64,000 nt of DNA from Elusimicrobiota bacterium (GTDB lineage: Bacteria; Elusimicrobiota; JBDRON01), in the NCBI GenBank assembly GCA_043810025.1, contig JBDRON010000053.1, positions 462-64,461 of the forward strand. The letters run 5' to 3'. Shown here one piece after another: positions 31,762 to 59,054 of this stretch. Position 1 is the stretch's first letter. Every line of letters starts with the position of its first letter. Made by a program: the position numbers and the translations under genes. The notes beneath the pieces are model-generated. The model worked only from the letters and a program-made list of their open reading frames with translations, did no database searches and was not told the DNA's origin.

Positions 31762-31915
31762 GGAAATTTCAGTGTTGTTGAAGTTTTCCCCCTTTTAGAA
31801 AGGGGGACTGAGGGGGATTTAGAAAATATTGTCAAAATCTCCCCTACCCCTCTTTATAAAAGAGGGAAAAAAAGTCGCCGCAAATATGTAAAGTTTCGAG
31901 CGAAATTAAGACTAG
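31762..31915 (+). repeat. mosaic multi-hairpin element, copy 3
   Basis: Head GGAAATTTCAGTGTTGTTGAAG plus the four-hairpin body. Confidence 0.7.
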
Positions 31916-53179: not shown

Positions 53180-53185
53180 ATGATT

Positions 53186-53284
53186 TTCCCTCTCCCCTTG
53201 CGGGAGAGGGCAGGGTGAGGGGCAAATAAAGGAATCGAAGCTTTAACACCCTCACCTTAATCCTCTCCCCTCAAGGGAGAGGAA
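53186..53284. repeat. CCTCTCCCC/GGGAGAGG hairpin element, copy 1
   Basis: CCCTCTCCCCTTGCGGGAGAGGG ... GGGTGAGGG..CCCTCACC ... CCTCTCCCCTCAAGGGAGAGG. Confidence 0.6.
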
Positions 53285-53349
53285 ATGGCTTTCATTGTAG
53301 GAATAACTTGTGCCTTGTGATAAATAATCCTGAAGAACGGAGTGAGACG

Positions 53350-54540: not shown

Positions 54541-54575
54541 ATAAGGTGTAAGGTGTAAGGTTTAAGGTTTAAGGG
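54541..54575. repeat. heptanucleotide tandem repeat (TAAGGTG/TAAGGTT) x5 upstream of the HD gene
   Basis: Sequence ataaggtgtaaggtgtaaggtttaaggtttaaggg. Confidence 0.7.
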
Positions 54576-54602
54576 AAAATAACTTGTAATAAAGGTTGGA
54601 GT

Positions 54603-55958
54603 ATGAGCGAAATAAGAGATACCATTTATGGTTTTATTACTCCATCAGATACAGAGTTAAATATTATAAACTCAACCCTTTTCCAGAGATTAAGGAAAAT
54701 TAAACAGCTTTCTTTGGAAAGTCTTGTCTATCCTGGCGCTCAGCATACGAGATTTGAGCATTCGCTTGGCGTACTATATATAGCAAAGACAATGGCAGAA
54801 AAGCTTTTATTAGTAGATAGCGATAGCGACAAAATAAGAATTATCAGATTTGCTGCCTTGTTGCATGATGTCGGACACGGCCCTTTTTCTCATGTTTCAG
54901 AAGATATTTTGGATAAATATTCCGCAGCCGATGAAAATAGCGCCAATAAAGATAAAATTCATGAGAAAATAACTGTAAAAATTATCGAAACGAATAAAGA
55001 ATTATCGAAAGTGTTGGGTTCCGAAGAGAGAAAGCAAATCGTAGGCCTTTTAAACGGTGAAAGTAGTGATCTGTCGCTGATGAGAGAAATTGTATCAGGT
55101 CCTATAGACGCTGACAAACAGGACTATTTGTTAAGAGACAGTTATTATTGCGGTGTTAAATATGGAGTATATGATTTTCATCGTTTAATTAATACACTTA
55201 CTCATTATGAAGAAGAGGATGATAAACATATCGCTATAAATTATGATGGGGTTAATGCTTTAGAGCAATTTGTTTTAGCAAAATATTATATGACAACTCA
55301 GGTTTACAGGCACAAAATAAGACTTGTTTCCGATGCTATGATTGTAAGAGATATTGAACTTGGAATTGAAAAAGATGGAATCGGGTGTCTAGCTGAATTA
55401 TACAATTATAATGATTCGGAAAAATACCTGATGAATTATTTATCTTGGTATGATGAAAGGTTGATTTGCGAGATAATTTATAATCAGAAAAATGGATTTG
55501 CAAATGAAATTTTTTCTAGGCTTAATGAGAGAAATCTTTTTAAAACAGTTTTTAGTCTGAATTTCAAAAATTTTCCAGAGACAATTCCTTCTAAAGTGAG
55601 AACTTTGATGGCTGATATTTGCAATAAAGAAAATAAAGGTAAAAAAATATTATTAGAAAGCGGAATAGCGAATATATTAGGAACAGAACCGGAATTTACA
55701 ATTGTTTATGTTTTTAAATTTAAGTCTGTTAAAAAAAAGTCGGGAGATTCTGAGGGGCAGATAATGGTAATTCAGCGGGATGGAAGACCAAATAGTTTTG
55801 AACAGGAATCTACTGTTTTTAGAGCAATTGATGGAGATATCGATGACATAATATTTGAAATTTATGCTCCGATGGATTATTCTAATGATCTTGATGATAA
55901 GATAAAAAAACTATCCAAATTCAAGAGAGATATAGTAGAATATTTATCAAGTATTTAA
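54603..55958 (+). CDS. HD-domain phosphohydrolase of the dGTPase/SAMHD1-like (COG1078-type) family
   Basis: QHTRFEHSLGV ... LLHDVGHGPFSH ... DADKQDYLLRDSYYCG motifs. 451 aa. AT-rich gene. Confidence 0.8.
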   Translation: MSEIRDTIYGFITPSDTELNIINSTLFQRLRKIKQLSLESLVYPGAQHTRFEHSLGVLYIAKTMAEKLLLVDSDSDKIRIIRFAALLHDVGHGPFSHVSEDILDKYSAADENSANKDKIHEKITVKIIETNKELSKVLGSEERKQIVGLLNGESSDLSLMREIVSGPIDADKQDYLLRDSYYCGVKYGVYDFHRLINTLTHYEEEDDKHIAINYDGVNALEQFVLAKYYMTTQVYRHKIRLVSDAMIVRDIELGIEKDGIGCLAELYNYNDSEKYLMNYLSWYDERLICEIIYNQKNGFANEIFSRLNERNLFKTVFSLNFKNFPETIPSKVRTLMADICNKENKGKKILLESGIANILGTEPEFTIVYVFKFKSVKKKSGDSEGQIMVIQRDGRPNSFEQESTVFRAIDGDIDDIIFEIYAPMDYSNDLDDKIKKLSKFKRDIVEYLSSI

Positions 55959-55969
55959 GGAGGTGTAAG

Positions 55970-56509
55970 ATGAAATTAAGGGATTTTTTGATTGCAATTT
56001 TAGGAGCAATGGGTGGGCAAATACAAAGTAAAACAAAAATCCAAAAACTTTGTTACTTTTTATCAATTGTTCTAAATAAAGATTTTGGATTTCAGGCGCA
56101 TTACTATGGACCTTATTCACAGCAAGTTGAAGAGGCGCTTGGCGATCTTTTGGGAATGGGTTTTGTAACTAAAACAACGAACAATTTTGGCGCTATCTCA
56201 GCCGGATTTGAGGTCGTAAGGTATGACTATTCCCTGACAAAAGAAGGTAAAGCAATTTATGAGGATATTCAATCTACTCCAGAATCTAATGAAGTTATAA
56301 ATAAACTAAAAATAATCGGTGATATAGACTACTTAAAACTTTCTATAGCGGCAAAGGCACACTACATTTTAAGTAAAGGTTCTCAAGCTCTGGATGTTAG
56401 TAAGATAAAAGATAAAGCAAAAAGTTTTAAGTGGAATATTACAGAAGAAGATATAGATACGGCAATAAATTTTTTAGAAAAAATGAATCTTGTTTTAGTT
56501 GCAAAATAA
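55970..56509 (+). CDS. Panacea (DUF4065)-like protein
   Basis: N-terminus ...KTKIQKLCYF......F.FQAHYYGPYSQQV resembles the SocA/GepA Panacea signature (KLQKLLYF...F.AW.HGPV). 11-nt gap after the HD gene, with a GGAGGT RBS. Confidence 0.55.
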   Translation: MKLRDFLIAILGAMGGQIQSKTKIQKLCYFLSIVLNKDFGFQAHYYGPYSQQVEEALGDLLGMGFVTKTTNNFGAISAGFEVVRYDYSLTKEGKAIYEDIQSTPESNEVINKLKIIGDIDYLKLSIAAKAHYILSKGSQALDVSKIKDKAKSFKWNITEEDIDTAINFLEKMNLVLVAK

Positions 56510-56550: not shown

Positions 56551-57177
56551 ATGAGATTATTACAAAAGGTTTTATCCCTGTTCATTGTATTAGTAATGGG
56601 TACTTTTGCTTATTCCCAGACAGTTTATCCTGCCAAGCAAAAGATCCAAAAGAAGCCAAAAATTGTTATTTCGGACAAGGGTGTTGGTCCCATCAATGAG
56701 AAGACTTTGTTCGAATACGCCGAAATACAAAGGCTTTTTCCTGGCCTGGTGGTTAAAAAGGTTGAGGATGGCGGTGGGTTTGAAGATATGGGATTTCCCA
56801 TTATTAATGTTCTGGACAAAGGCCAGACACTTATTACGATTAACCCTGTGAATGGGAATAACGATGATAAAAGAATTTACAGTGTTGTTGTAAAAAGCAA
56901 TCTAGTCGAAAATTCTTTAGGGGCAAAGATTGGTTCAACATATGCTCAAATCTATAAATCTGGTATTTCTTCAAACTGTAAGCCGGGAATGGAACAAGAC
57001 TCCGGAACAATTATAGATCAAGATCCTAATTCTAAGCATGTTCGTTATGTCTTCGAAGGGGAATGGAATGGCGAGGATGGAAGTATTCCTCCATTTGAAG
57101 TGCTTAAAACATGGAAAATTACTGAAATTATTTGGAACCCCGTGTTGTTAGATATCAATGAAGTGAGATTCAAGTAG
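56551..57177 (+). CDS. secreted hypothetical protein
   Basis: Signal peptide. 208 aa. Confidence 0.4.
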   Translation: MRLLQKVLSLFIVLVMGTFAYSQTVYPAKQKIQKKPKIVISDKGVGPINEKTLFEYAEIQRLFPGLVVKKVEDGGGFEDMGFPIINVLDKGQTLITINPVNGNNDDKRIYSVVVKSNLVENSLGAKIGSTYAQIYKSGISSNCKPGMEQDSGTIIDQDPNSKHVRYVFEGEWNGEDGSIPPFEVLKTWKITEIIWNPVLLDINEVRFK

Positions 57178-57229
57178 ATCATTGTAATATTGATTTTAGA
57201 CATTCAGAAGTATGGACTCAAGTTGTTTT

Positions 57230-57316
57230 CCTCTCCTTCGATGGGAGAGGATTAAGGTGTGGGTGTATATTTTAAAAAGCACCCCTCACCCTACCCTCTC
57301 CCCCAAGGGGAGAGGG
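57230..57316. repeat. CCTCTCC/GGGAGAGG hairpin element, copy 2
   Basis: CCTCTCCTTCGATGGGAGAGG ... CACCCCTCACC ... CCCTCTCCCCCAAGGGGAGAGGG. Confidence 0.6.
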
Positions 57317-57394
57317 AGCATCAATGTGCGATGTTTTTCCGTTTTATGCGGGCTAAATTTAAGGTGAAATGAGTTTTTTTTAAACGAGGTTAAG

Positions 57395-58702: not shown

Positions 58703-58718
58703 AACAACTTGATGTCGA

Positions 58719-58866
58719 GGAAATTCAACTTTGATGAAGTGTTCCCCCTTTTAAAAAGGGGGATTAAGGGGGATTTTGAAAATAAGAAATATTGTCTAAA
58801 TCTCCCCTACCCCTCTTTTATAAAGAGGGGAATTAATATTCTGAGCGAAGCTCGGACTAACTTGAA
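58719..58866 (+). repeat. mosaic multi-hairpin element, copy 6
   Basis: Head GGAAATTCAACTTTGATGAAG plus the four-hairpin body ending GGACTAACTTG. Confidence 0.7.
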
Positions 58867-58871
58867 GTTAA

Positions 58872-58988
58872 GGAAATTCAATGTTTGTTTTGTGCGTGTT
58901 CCCCCTTTAAAAAGGGGGACTAAGGGGGATTTAGACAATAATAATTATTAAATCTCCCCTAACCCCTCTTTATAAAAGAGGGGAATAA
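58872..58988 (+). repeat. mosaic multi-hairpin element, copy 7 (tandem, lacks the fourth hairpin)
   Basis: Head GGAAATTCAATGTTTGTTTTG plus three hairpins. Confidence 0.65.
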
Positions 58989-59054
58989 AAAAAGAAGGAA
59001 ATTTTAAAAGTCAGCGCCGCAGGCGCTTAATTTGATAAACAGTGAGGTTGTTTT

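What the first reader, a model, noticed from the sequence alone, without database searches (positions are those of the whole stretch)
54541..56509. An HD-domain dGTPase/SAMHD1-like phosphohydrolase is paired with a Panacea (DUF4065)-like protein
This two-gene, AT-rich islet lies between an aminotransferase gene and hom-thrC. A heptamer tandem repeat lies just upstream and intergenic repeat elements flank it.

The first protein (451 aa) carries the HD motifs of dNTP triphosphohydrolases (H..H, HD, DADKQDYLLRDS). Homologs of this family deplete dNTPs as an anti-phage defence.

The second protein (179 aa), encoded 11 bp downstream, has an N-terminal KIQKLCYF...YYGPYS signature like Panacea-domain (PanA/SocA/GepA) antitoxins. 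Those antitoxins are known to neutralise many unrelated toxins.

An HD dNTPase toxin paired with a Panacea antitoxin is, to my knowledge, not a described pairing. Such a pair could be a regulated nucleotide-depletion defence or toxin-antitoxin module.
Basis: partly seen in the sequence, partly recalled or inferred. Interest (0 to 1): 0.75.

Follow-up and report, generated by a model that had tools for sequence, protein, structure and literature searches.

The report
HD dNTPase with DarG-like partner
A SAMHD1-type nucleotide-degrading enzyme gene is always followed by a small gene resembling the toxin-binding half of the DarG antitoxin, not a Panacea protein; together they form a mobile, low-GC two-gene cassette that probably acts as a self-restrained nucleotide-depletion module.

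Summary
The two ORFs are real: 54603-55958 (451 aa) and 55970-56509 (179 aa), 11 nt apart.

**Protein 1** belongs to the SAMHD1/EF1143 HD family (PF01966 + PF19276), with catalytic residues intact.

**Protein 2** is not a Panacea protein.
- None of 57 family members hits PF13274.
- hhalign against verified Panacea proteins gives 7.9% probability.

**The pairing is strict.**
- 75 of 76 partner-ascertained loci across many phyla have HD sequence directly upstream.
- 9 of 9 HD-ascertained loci have the partner downstream.
- The two proteins co-evolve (r=0.84), and no third gene is conserved.

**The cassette behaves as an accessory element.**
- Its GC is lower than its flanks in 58 of 59 loci (median −8 points).
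- It sits at different sites in different genomes.
- It is wedged inside or beside Type III R-M operons in several loci.
- In five loci the HD gene has decayed while the partner stays intact.

**Best reading (about 0.45):** a dNTPase effector held in check by an antitoxin-like binding protein. This is a new variant of nucleotide-depletion defence or toxin-antitoxin systems. No activity, binding or defence has been shown.

The parts
54542..54574 (.). Tandem heptamer repeat TAAGGTG, 4.7 copies. It lies in the 62-nt gap between the aminotransferase stop codon and the HD start codon. Its role is unknown; it could be a promoter or leader region.
   Evidence: Tandem Repeats Finder, 96% matches; sequence read.
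54603..55958 (+). HD-domain phosphohydrolase of the SAMHD1/EF1143 (COG1078) family, 451 aa. It is the presumed dNTP triphosphohydrolase effector.
   Evidence: PF01966 at 1e-15 and PF19276 (HD_assoc_2) at 4.6e-17. PDB sequence matches: 2HEK 1e-48, 2Q14, EF1143 (2O6I) 2e-33, SAMHD1 7e-26. Catalytic residues R50, H53, H88, D89, H92, H97, D169 and D171 are present. Only partial, sub-threshold matches to Dgt-type dGTPase models.
55959..55969 (+). 11-nt spacer carrying the Shine-Dalgarno sequence (AAGGAGG) of the second gene. This suggests an operon, and probably translational coupling.
   Evidence: Sequence read. In relatives the junction ranges from a 14-nt overlap to about 60 nt.
55970..56509 (+). 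179-aa stand-alone homologue of the DarG C-terminal (DarT-binding) domain, the 'YwgA'-type family. It has an N-terminal winged helix plus a helical domain. It is the presumed binding partner or inhibitor of the HD enzyme.
56551..57177 (+). DUF1131 / RpoE-regulated lipoprotein family gene, 208 aa. It lies inside the same low-GC stretch but is not a conserved partner of the pair.
   Evidence: PF06572 at 7e-23 and NF007990 at 7e-24. GC profile. No third gene is conserved across 80 loci.
53181..53285 (.). Left copy of a composite double-hairpin repeat (CCCTCTCCCC-N4-GGGAGAGGG, twice).
   Evidence: the repeat finder families D1, I1, I3. Only 4 hairpin matches in 64 kb, against 0.02 expected.
57227..57323 (.). 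Right copy of the same composite repeat, in inverted orientation and 90% complementary to the left copy. Together the two copies bracket the aminotransferase, HD, partner and DUF1131 genes.
   Evidence: the repeat finder I1, I3, I8; pattern search.

Best explanation
This is a self-contained, horizontally mobile two-gene cassette.

- **Gene 1** encodes a SAMHD1/EF1143-family HD enzyme that most likely hydrolyses dNTPs.
- **Gene 2**, expressed from the same transcript, encodes a stand-alone copy of the domain that DarG uses to bind and silence its toxin DarT.

By analogy, the small protein binds the HD enzyme and keeps it inactive in normal cells, in the manner of a type II antitoxin. Loss, displacement or titration of the partner, for example during phage infection, would release dNTP hydrolysis and starve DNA replication.

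**Shown here**
- Family membership of both proteins.
- Intact catalytic residues.
- Strict synteny and co-evolution.
- Anomalous composition and variable insertion sites.
- Recurrent embedding in Type III R-M operons.
- Loci with a decayed HD gene and an intact partner.

**Inferred, not shown**
- dNTPase activity.
- Physical binding.
- Inhibition rather than activation.
- Toxicity.
- Any anti-phage role.
For: **HD protein**
- It belongs to the SAMHD1/EF1143 family and keeps all catalytic motifs.

**Protein 2**
- It matches the DarG C-terminal domain over its full length, by sequence (5.7e-12; 2.8e-7; PDB profile 6.9e-4).
- That domain is the part of DarG that binds and inhibits DarT (PMC13621843; title of Deep et al. 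2023).
- Its canonical recognition helix is never positively charged in 57 homologues (mean net charge -1.6), and the wing is acidic. This argues against ordinary DNA binding.

**Synteny and co-evolution**
- HD sequence lies directly upstream on the same strand in 75 of 76 informative partner-ascertained loci from many phyla.
- The partner lies directly downstream in 9 of 9 HD-ascertained loci.
- The pair is also intact in 1 metagenome and 4 IMG/VR loci.
- Distance matrices of the two proteins correlate at r=0.84, with 0 of 999 Mantel permutations as high.
- No other gene is conserved nearby.

**Accessory, mobile character**
- The cassette has lower GC than its flanks in 58 of 59 loci, median -8.3 points, and in 9 further loci.
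- The closest relative carries it at a different chromosomal site, next to hisG-hisD.

**Defence context**
- Tight Mod-HD-partner-Res operons occur in L087/L088 and L092, and the partner is followed by the same Res lineage in L018.
- In L024 the partner follows an anti-phage dCTP deaminase (6.5e-87) and a Type III Mod gene.
- Other neighbours are TIR-NACHT, NACHT-HEAT-phosphoesterase, PDC-S19, DUF4435 and HigB.

**Toxin-like decay pattern**
- The HD gene is deleted or reduced to remnants, with an intact partner, in L015, L050, L057, L080 and L096.

**Precedent**
- Clover shows that defensive dNTPases can need a neighbouring gene to restrain them (PMC12265719).
Against: - No biochemical or genetic data exist for either protein.
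- The immediate-neighbour census is mostly housekeeping genes. Only about 2-3 of 130 neighbours are R-M or STAND type.
- There is no hit in sequenced plasmids or cultured phages.
- PADLOC 2023 has no model for this system.
- The family name comes from B. subtilis YwgA. From memory and gene nomenclature, ywgA sits next to ywfO in the B. subtilis core genome, and ywfO was listed among genes co-evolving with PolC. This hints at a housekeeping role in at least some lineages.
- The decay asymmetry is biased, because most loci were ascertained through the partner gene.
- The dCTP-deaminase association is a single locus with an intervening ORF and a split deaminase gene.
- A 451-aa enzyme is not a typical type II toxin.
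- The high conservation of polar residues in the partner (H44, Y46, S50, K26, K129, R84) could indicate a ligand site rather than a simple protein-binding surface.
Confidence: 0.45

Rival explanations
1. Housekeeping nucleotide-pool enzyme with an accessory subunit. The HD protein trims or sanitises dNTP or modified-nucleotide pools. The YwgA-like protein is a regulatory, stabilising or targeting subunit. There is no toxin-antitoxin or defence role.
For: - Bacterial SAMHD1-like enzymes such as EF1143 are the closest solved relatives.
- The family name derives from a B. subtilis core-genome gene (JGI labels).
- ywfO is listed among genes co-evolving with PolC and has been proposed as a nucleotide-sanitising enzyme (PMC4993169).
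- Most immediate neighbours are ordinary metabolic genes.
- The window copy sits among amino-acid biosynthesis genes.
- The family is absent from plasmids and cultured phages.
Against: - A housekeeping operon should share the host's composition. The cassette is 8 GC points below its flanks in 58 of 59 loci.
- It sits at unrelated sites even in close relatives.
- It is inserted inside Type III R-M operons.
- It repeatedly loses the enzyme while keeping the small gene.
- The family is modest in size, 310 clusters at E<=1e-30, so it is not universal.
Confidence: 0.27
2. Sensor or activator rather than inhibitor. The DarG-CTD-like protein detects a phage cue (a protein, ssDNA or a nucleotide) through its conserved polar pocket and switches the HD enzyme on. 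Alternatively it acts as an adaptor that delivers the enzyme to a target.
For: - Polar residues are strongly conserved, more than a simple docking surface would need. K26, Y46, G47, P48, S50 and K129 are invariant; H44, R84, E81 and D86 are nearly so.
- SAMHD1-family enzymes are allosterically regulated (established knowledge).
- Clover shows that dNTPases can respond to both activating and inhibiting signals.
Against: - The only characterised homologue of the domain (the DarG CTD) is an inhibitor of its partner enzyme.
- Loci with a decayed enzyme and an intact partner fit an antidote better than an activator.
Confidence: 0.13
3. The small protein is a winged-helix transcription factor that autoregulates the operon and has no direct contact with the enzyme.
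For: - The N-terminal half has canonical winged-helix topology.
- PadR, MarR and RTP proteins are the next-best structural neighbours.
- 11 of 57 members give weak HARE-HTH hits.
- The heptamer repeat upstream of the operon could be an operator.
Against: - The recognition helix and wing are acidic in all 57 homologues.
- Co-evolution with the enzyme at r=0.84 and one apparent fusion suggest a protein-protein relationship.
Confidence: 0.08
4. A genuine PanAT system: protein 2 is a Panacea (DUF4065) antitoxin neutralising a new HD toxin.
For: - The core motif is shared and aligns in register: T-K-x-Q-K-x-x-Y-F with L-K-L-Q-K-L-x-Y-Y, and Y-G-P with x-G-P.
- The layout meets the PanAT neighbourhood criteria of a conserved two-gene locus with a gap under 100 nt (PMC8832971).
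- A remote DUF4065-DarG CTD link has been suggested.
Against: - PanA is defined by PF13274 at gathering threshold, and 0 of 57 members hit it even at E<=10.
- hhalign probability is 7.9%.
- The verified Panacea profile does not reach DarG.
- No Panacea-named protein appears among the top viral fold matches.
Confidence: 0.05

Closest known systems
DarTG toxin-antitoxin / anti-phage system (DarG C-terminal domain, PDB 7YK3)
   Same: - Protein 2 is homologous to the whole DarG C-terminal domain by sequence and fold.
- The gene order is the same: enzyme first, neutraliser second.
- The neutralising domain is thought to act by direct binding.
   Different: - There is no macrodomain, so no enzymatic (type IV) antidote activity.
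- The partner is an HD phosphohydrolase, not the DarT ADP-ribosyltransferase.
- The target would be the nucleotide pool, not DNA.
Panacea (DUF4065, PF13274) PanAT systems
   Same: - Both are small antitoxin-type proteins next to a much larger unrelated enzyme in a conserved two-gene locus.
- The QKxxY[FY]...GP core motif is shared.
- There may be a remote common ancestry through the DarG CTD.
   Different: - Protein 2 fails the Pfam model and the profile-profile test.
- In nearly all cases seen here this family is tied to one partner family (HD), rather than being hyperpromiscuous.
Anti-phage nucleotide depletion enzymes (Dgt-type dGTPase and dCTP deaminase, Tal et al. 2022)
   Same: - Both are HD-superfamily triphosphohydrolases expected to lower dNTP pools.
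- One relative of protein 2 lies next to a dCTP deaminase of this type.
   Different: - Those are single-gene systems of the Dgt family.
- This enzyme is of the SAMHD1/EF1143 (HD_assoc_2) type. It matches Dgt models only over about 90 N-terminal residues, far below cutoff.
- It always has a partner gene.
Clover (CloA dGTPase + CloB nucleotidyltransferase; PMC12265719)
   Same: A two-gene operon in which a dNTPase effector is restrained by the product of the neighbouring gene, to avoid self-toxicity.
   Different: - Restraint in Clover comes from a small nucleotide signal (p3diT) made by an NTase.
- Here the partner has no NTase features and resembles a protein-binding antitoxin domain.
SAMHD1 / EF1143 / TT1383 dNTP triphosphohydrolases
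   Same: The domain architecture (HD + HD-associated region) and catalytic motifs are the same.
   Different: - Those enzymes are regulated allosterically by nucleotides and have no dedicated protein partner gene.
- Allosteric-site conservation was not examined here.
Bacillus subtilis ywfO-ywgA (uncharacterised)
   Same: - JGI labels homologues of protein 2 'YwgA'.
- YwfO is an HD phosphohydrolase of the same COG.
- The gene names imply adjacency.
   Different: - Adjacency and homology to the B. subtilis genes rest on memory and nomenclature and were not tested here.
- No function is known for them either.

Membership tests
SAMHD1/EF1143-type HD phosphohydrolases (COG1078; PF01966 + PF19276) | HD domain and HD-associated region both above the Pfam gathering score | tested here: met
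   PF01966 scores 58.5 bits (cutoff 22). PF19276 scores 62.6 bits (cutoff 23.1).
SAMHD1/EF1143-type HD phosphohydrolases (COG1078; PF01966 + PF19276) | Metal-binding and catalytic residues (H...HD...D, plus RFEH, GHGPFSH, DxDKxDYxxRD) | tested here: met
   R50, H53, H88, D89, H92, H97, D169 and D171 are present. They align with EF1143 and SAMHD1.
SAMHD1/EF1143-type HD phosphohydrolases (COG1078; PF01966 + PF19276) | dNTP triphosphohydrolase activity | not testable with these tools
   This needs an enzyme assay.
Anti-phage dGTPase (Dgt family; NCBIfam NF041026 / PADLOC dGTPase) | Full-length match above the curated cutoff | tested here: not met
   NF041026 scores 24.8 bits against a cutoff of 400. 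The PADLOC dGTPase model matches only residues 21-107.
Panacea / PanA (PF13274, DUF4065) | Hit to PF13274 at gathering threshold (the definition used by Kurata et al. 2022) | tested here: not met
   There is no hit at E<=1 for protein 2, and 0 of 57 homologues hit at E<=10.
Panacea / PanA (PF13274, DUF4065) | Profile-profile homology to verified Panacea proteins | tested here: inconclusive
   hhalign gives probability 7.9%, E 0.0043 over 51 columns, in the correct motif register. The Panacea profile does not hit DarG.
Panacea / PanA (PF13274, DUF4065) | Conserved two-gene locus with a putative toxin, gap <=100 nt | tested here: met
   The gap is 11 nt here, and the pairing is conserved in 75 of 76 loci.
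DarG antitoxin (DarTG) | C-terminal DarT-binding domain | tested here: met
DarG antitoxin (DarTG) | N-terminal macrodomain (ADP-ribosyl glycohydrolase) | tested here: not met
   The protein is only 179 aa and the match is confined to the C-terminal half of the DarG models. The NCBIfam score of 30 is far below the cutoff of 250.
DarG antitoxin (DarTG) | Adjacent DarT toxin gene | tested here: not met
   The upstream gene is an HD phosphohydrolase in the window and in 75 of 76 loci.
Type II toxin-antitoxin module (generic) | Toxin is toxic alone and is neutralised by direct binding of the antitoxin | not testable with these tools
   The only evidence is indirect: five loci with a decayed HD gene and an intact partner, and co-evolution at r=0.84.
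Clover (CloAB) | Partner is a Pol-beta-type nucleotidyltransferase | tested here: not met
   Protein 2 has no NTase family hit. Its fold is a winged helix plus a helical domain.

The most novel reading that the evidence does not exclude
The YwgA/DarG-CTD-like domain may be a portable protein 'safety catch' for nucleotide-depleting immune effectors.
- It is usually attached to a SAMHD1-type dNTPase, and occasionally sits beside a dCTP deaminase.
- The cassette plugs into Type III restriction-modification operons to give a layered defence: cut the invader's DNA and starve its replication.
- Phages may carry orphan copies of the safety catch as an anti-defence protein, as suggested by L086.
Probability: 0.2. 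Interest if true: 0.8.

Novelty: new variant of a known kind. Interest (0 to 1): 0.6.

Why it matters
Nucleotide depletion is a shared antiviral strategy from bacteria to humans (SAMHD1). How cells keep such enzymes from harming themselves is only beginning to be understood; Clover, described in 2025, is the first example.

If the model is right, this cassette would be a second, mechanistically different solution: a protein inhibitor borrowed from the DarG antitoxin. It would also:
- give the first function to a widespread uncharacterised gene pair (YwfO/YwgA type);
- show that the DarG C-terminal domain, like Panacea, can be redeployed against unrelated enzymes;
- reveal Type III R-M operons that carry a built-in nucleotide-depletion module.

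If the housekeeping rival is right instead, it would define a new regulatory subunit for bacterial SAMHD1-like enzymes.

Tried and rejected
- **Panacea membership.** Tested three ways and rejected as a family assignment: Pfam scans of 57 members, hhalign against 36 verified PF13274 proteins, and the Panacea profile against the PDB and PADLOC.
- **Dgt-type anti-phage dGTPase.** Rejected; only partial, sub-threshold matches.
- **Clover.** Rejected; the partner is a different kind of protein.
- **afdb50 fold library.** Not available.
- **Metagenome scan with the single HD protein.** It returned only one locus.
- **tblastn of protein 2 against PLSDB plasmids and INPHARED phages.** No match.
- **PHROGs.** Nothing informative for protein 2.
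- **Literature searches for YwgA, YwfO, PDC-M19 and dNTPase + antitoxin.** No functional study found. The Deep et al. 2023 DarG-CTD structure paper is not held.
- **'N-terminally extended' partner variants.** One turned out to be an HD C-terminal remnant read through into the partner gene (P0413/L096). The other is probably an upstream in-frame start (L024). Neither is a new domain.
- **Defence-island enrichment from the immediate-neighbour census.** It did not support strong enrichment.
Full report
**1. What is in the sequence**

The two ORFs exist as described. Gene A is 54603-55958 (+), 451 aa. Gene B is 55970-56509 (+), 179 aa. They are 11 nt apart, with a strong Shine-Dalgarno sequence (AAGGAGG) before the second ATG.

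A TAAGGTG heptamer repeated 4.7 times fills most of the short gap after the upstream aminotransferase gene. The pair has 32.0% GC and the rest of the window 42.0%.

- A third gene, a DUF1131 / RpoE-regulated-lipoprotein family member at 56551-57177, lies between gene B and hom. It is inside the same low-GC stretch.
- The flanking repeats are an inverted pair of a composite double-hairpin element of about 100 nt, at 53181-53285 and 57227-57323. This pair brackets four genes, including the aminotransferase, which has host-like GC. The hairpin occurs nowhere else in the 64 kb.

The window is identical in both proteins to a contig of an Elusimicrobiota MAG.

**2. Protein A**

- It carries HD (PF01966) and HD_assoc_2 (PF19276), both above threshold.
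- Its best solved relatives by sequence are Aquifex 2HEK (1e-48), Bacteroides 2Q14, the Enterococcus dNTPase EF1143 (2O6I/3IRH/4LRL, 2e-33), 9MR6 and SAMHD1 (about 1e-25).
- The residue-level alignments show the family signatures conserved: QRLRxIKQL, PGAxHxRFEHSLGV, LLHDxGHGPFSH, IDADKQDYLLRD. The catalytic residues are at R50, H53, H88, D89, H92, H97, D169 and D171.
- Matches to Dgt-type dGTPase models, including the anti-phage dGTPase, cover only about 90 N-terminal residues and fall far below the cutoffs.

It is therefore a SAMHD1/EF1143-type enzyme, not a Dgt-type one. dNTPase activity is inferred from family membership.

**3. Protein B is not Panacea; it is a stand-alone DarG C-terminal domain**

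*Tests against Panacea*
- Pfam gives no PF13274 hit at E<=1.
- None of 57 aligned homologues hits PF13274 at E<=10.
- I obtained 120 proteins that all carry a precomputed PF13274 annotation, which verifies them independently of how the seed was made, and aligned 36 of them.
- hhalign of the two family profiles gives 7.9% probability over 51 columns. The motif resemblance is real but statistically unsupported.
- The Panacea profile finds neither DarG in the PDB nor any PADLOC DarG model, 0 of 36.

*Tests against DarG*
- Protein B matches the C-terminal half of PADLOC's DarG model (positions 165-327 of 329, 5.7e-12) and of NCBIfam antitoxin_DarG (positions 185-319 of 338, 2.8e-7).
- Its family profile hits PDB 7YK3 chain B, the M. 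tuberculosis DarG C-terminal domain in complex with DarT.

*How the families relate*
- That domain of DarG binds and inhibits the DarT toxin (PMC13621843, citing Deep et al. 2023).
- The same paper reports a marginal DUF4065-DarG CTD link (E about 1e-3). Panacea, the DarG CTD and this family may therefore be distant cousins, with this family clearly on the DarG side.
- JGI labels these proteins 'uncharacterized protein YwgA'.
- The family comprises 310 clusters (at 50% identity) at E<=1e-30 and 3,147 at E<=1e-3 among 1.84 billion representatives. The best 150 are all stand-alone proteins of about 180-200 aa.

**4. The pairing is real and strict**

- A scan of one genome per species found 271 relatives, and 80 loci were fetched. 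They come from Acidobacteriota, Planctomycetota, Chloroflexota, Nitrospirota, Zixibacteria, Omnitrophota, Thermodesulfobacteriota, Verrucomicrobiota, Armatimonadota, Cloacimonadota, Ignavibacteria and Bacillota.
- HD-homologous sequence lies directly upstream on the same strand in 75 of the 76 loci with enough upstream DNA.
- Reciprocally, nine HD homologues at 47-65% identity were looked up by exact sequence. All have a gene of 179-192 aa directly downstream, from a 14-nt overlap to a 60-nt gap. It was confirmed as a protein B homologue wherever tested.
- The pair is also intact in one metagenome locus and four IMG/VR contigs.
- Pairwise distances of the two proteins across 57 complete pairs correlate at r=0.84, with 0 of 999 Mantel permutations as high.
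- No third gene is conserved: the next-largest neighbour cluster occurs in 7 of 80 loci.
- One MAG locus (L017) has the two fused into a 651-aa ORF. It is a single case and could be an assembly error.

**5. The cassette behaves like an accessory, mobile element**

- In 58 of 59 loci with adequate flanks, the pair has lower GC than its own surroundings (median -8.3 points). The same holds for nine further loci. The 'AT-rich islet' is thus a general property of this cassette, not of this genome.
- The closest relative with a long contig carries it next to hisG-hisD, not next to hom-thrC.
- Immediate neighbours are very heterogeneous and mostly metabolic. Only a few are R-M or STAND genes, so I do not claim defence-island enrichment.

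Some contexts are nonetheless telling.
- In L087/L088 and L092 the pair is wedged between the Mod and Res genes of a Type III R-M operon, with overlapping or abutting reading frames. L018 has the partner followed directly by the same Res lineage.
- In L024 a partner homologue follows a gene matching PADLOC's anti-phage dCTP deaminase (6.5e-87 and 7e-41 for its two fragments) and a Type III Mod gene, with no HD gene. This is a single locus with an intervening 172-aa ORF.
- Other neighbours include TIR-NACHT-TPR (L080), NACHT-HEAT-metallophosphoesterase (L015), PDC-S19/DUF3644 (L050), DUF4435 (L096) and HigB plus an HTH protein (L090).

**6. Decay pattern**

In L015, L050, L057, L080 and L096 the HD gene is reduced to remnants or internally deleted while the partner gene is intact. 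In L076 and L078 the HD gene is split.

This is what is expected if the enzyme is harmful without its partner. However, most loci were found through the partner gene, so the asymmetry is biased. The HD-ascertained sample (9 of 9 with the partner) is small.

**7. How it most likely works**

My best-supported model, at about 0.45 confidence, is as follows.
- A SAMHD1-type dNTPase is co-expressed with, and held inactive by, a DarG-CTD-like binding protein.
- Release of the enzyme depletes dNTPs and blocks DNA replication of an invader, or of the cell.

The canonical DNA-recognition helix and wing of protein B are acidic in every homologue. This argues against a plain transcription-factor role and fits a protein-binding or nucleic-acid-mimic role like that reported for the DarG CTD.

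Clover, a dGTPase restrained by a signal made by its neighbouring gene, is a mechanistic precedent, but its partner is an unrelated NTase.

Shown: family memberships, catalytic residues, synteny, co-evolution, composition, contexts and decay. Inferred: activity, binding, direction of regulation, toxicity and defence.

**8. Rivals**

| Rival | Confidence | Main support | Main objection |
|---|---|---|---|
| Housekeeping dNTP-pool enzyme with a regulatory subunit | about 0.27 | B. subtilis-derived name; ywfO among PolC-co-evolving genes; mostly metabolic neighbours | Compositional anomaly, variable sites, R-M embedding |
| Partner is a sensor or activator | about 0.13 | Conserved polar residues | Analogy with DarG; decay pattern |
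| Partner is an autoregulatory winged-helix repressor | about 0.08 | Winged-helix topology and structural neighbours | Acidic recognition helix and wing |
| True PanAT system | about 0.05 | Shared motif in register | Effectively excluded as family membership |

**9. Novelty**

PADLOC 2023 has no model for either protein beyond the partial matches above. No paper in the held library describes this pairing or a function for YwgA or YwfO.

The components and the logic (nucleotide depletion, and an antitoxin-like restraint) are known kinds. The combination appears undescribed, so I rate it a new variant of a known kind.

The statement that ywfO and ywgA are adjacent in B. subtilis rests on my memory and the systematic gene names. 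It was not tested here.

Noticed in passing
window 53181-53285 and 57227-57323: An inverted pair (90% complementary) of a composite element of about 100 nt, made of two GC-rich hairpins (CCCTCTCCCC-N4-GGGAGAGGG). It brackets four genes: aminotransferase, HD, partner and DUF1131. The hairpin occurs nowhere else in the 64 kb (0.02 expected by chance). It could be a REP/MITE-like element or the ends of an invertible or mobile segment.
   Followed up: partly
window 58706-58990: Between hom and the next gene there is a tandem duplication of about 153 nt. It contains the hairpins CCCCTCTTT-N3-AAAGAGGGG and CCCCCTTTAAAAAGGGGGA..TAAGGGGGATTT. Related hairpins occur at 31847 and 34382, so this is a second, different intergenic repeat family.
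   Followed up: partly
window 56551-57177: A DUF1131 / RpoE-regulated lipoprotein family gene sits inside the same low-GC stretch as the pair. It is not conserved next to the pair elsewhere. It may have been acquired together with the pair or separately.
   Followed up: partly
L087 920-7344, L088, L092 428-6359, L018 26-3025: Type III R-M operons with the HD-partner cassette inserted tightly between Mod and Res. Reading frames overlap or abut, and the Res proteins are 78-81% identical across the loci.
   Followed up: partly
L024 224-5128: In a Bryobacteraceae MAG the order is: Type III Mod, a split gene matching the anti-phage dCTP deaminase (PADLOC dCTPase, 6.5e-87 and 7e-41), a 172-aa unknown ORF, and a partner homologue. 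There is no HD gene. This may be effector swapping, or simply defence-island adjacency.
   Followed up: partly
L086 4998-5534 (IMG/VR contig, 81.7 kb): A divergent orphan partner homologue (28% identity) with no HD gene, on a contig classed as viral. The contig also carries a ThyX-like ORF (1005-2030). It may be a phage-borne orphan 'antitoxin' acting as anti-defence.
   Followed up: no
L015, L050, L057, L080, L096 (also split HD genes in L076, L078): The HD gene is reduced to remnants or internally deleted while the downstream partner gene stays intact. In L096 the called ORF (P0413, 265 aa) is an HD C-terminal remnant read through into the partner gene.
   Followed up: yes
L017 4612-6567: An apparent natural fusion of the HD protein and the partner into one 651-aa ORF, in an Acidobacteriaceae MAG. 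It is a single case and could be a lost stop codon or an assembly error.
   Followed up: partly
L093 1-4397: In this relative the cassette is preceded by a class I/II aminotransferase, as in the window, plus a 5'-nucleotidase (Metallophos + 5_nucleotid_C). It faces dnaE. This may be a nucleotide-metabolism neighbourhood.
   Followed up: no
PADLOC model PDC-M19A against window 55970-56509: The N-terminal 110 residues of protein 2 also match a PADLOC 'phage defence candidate' protein, PDC-M19A (6.7e-7, profile positions 5-111 of 294). No literature on this candidate was found.
   Followed up: partly
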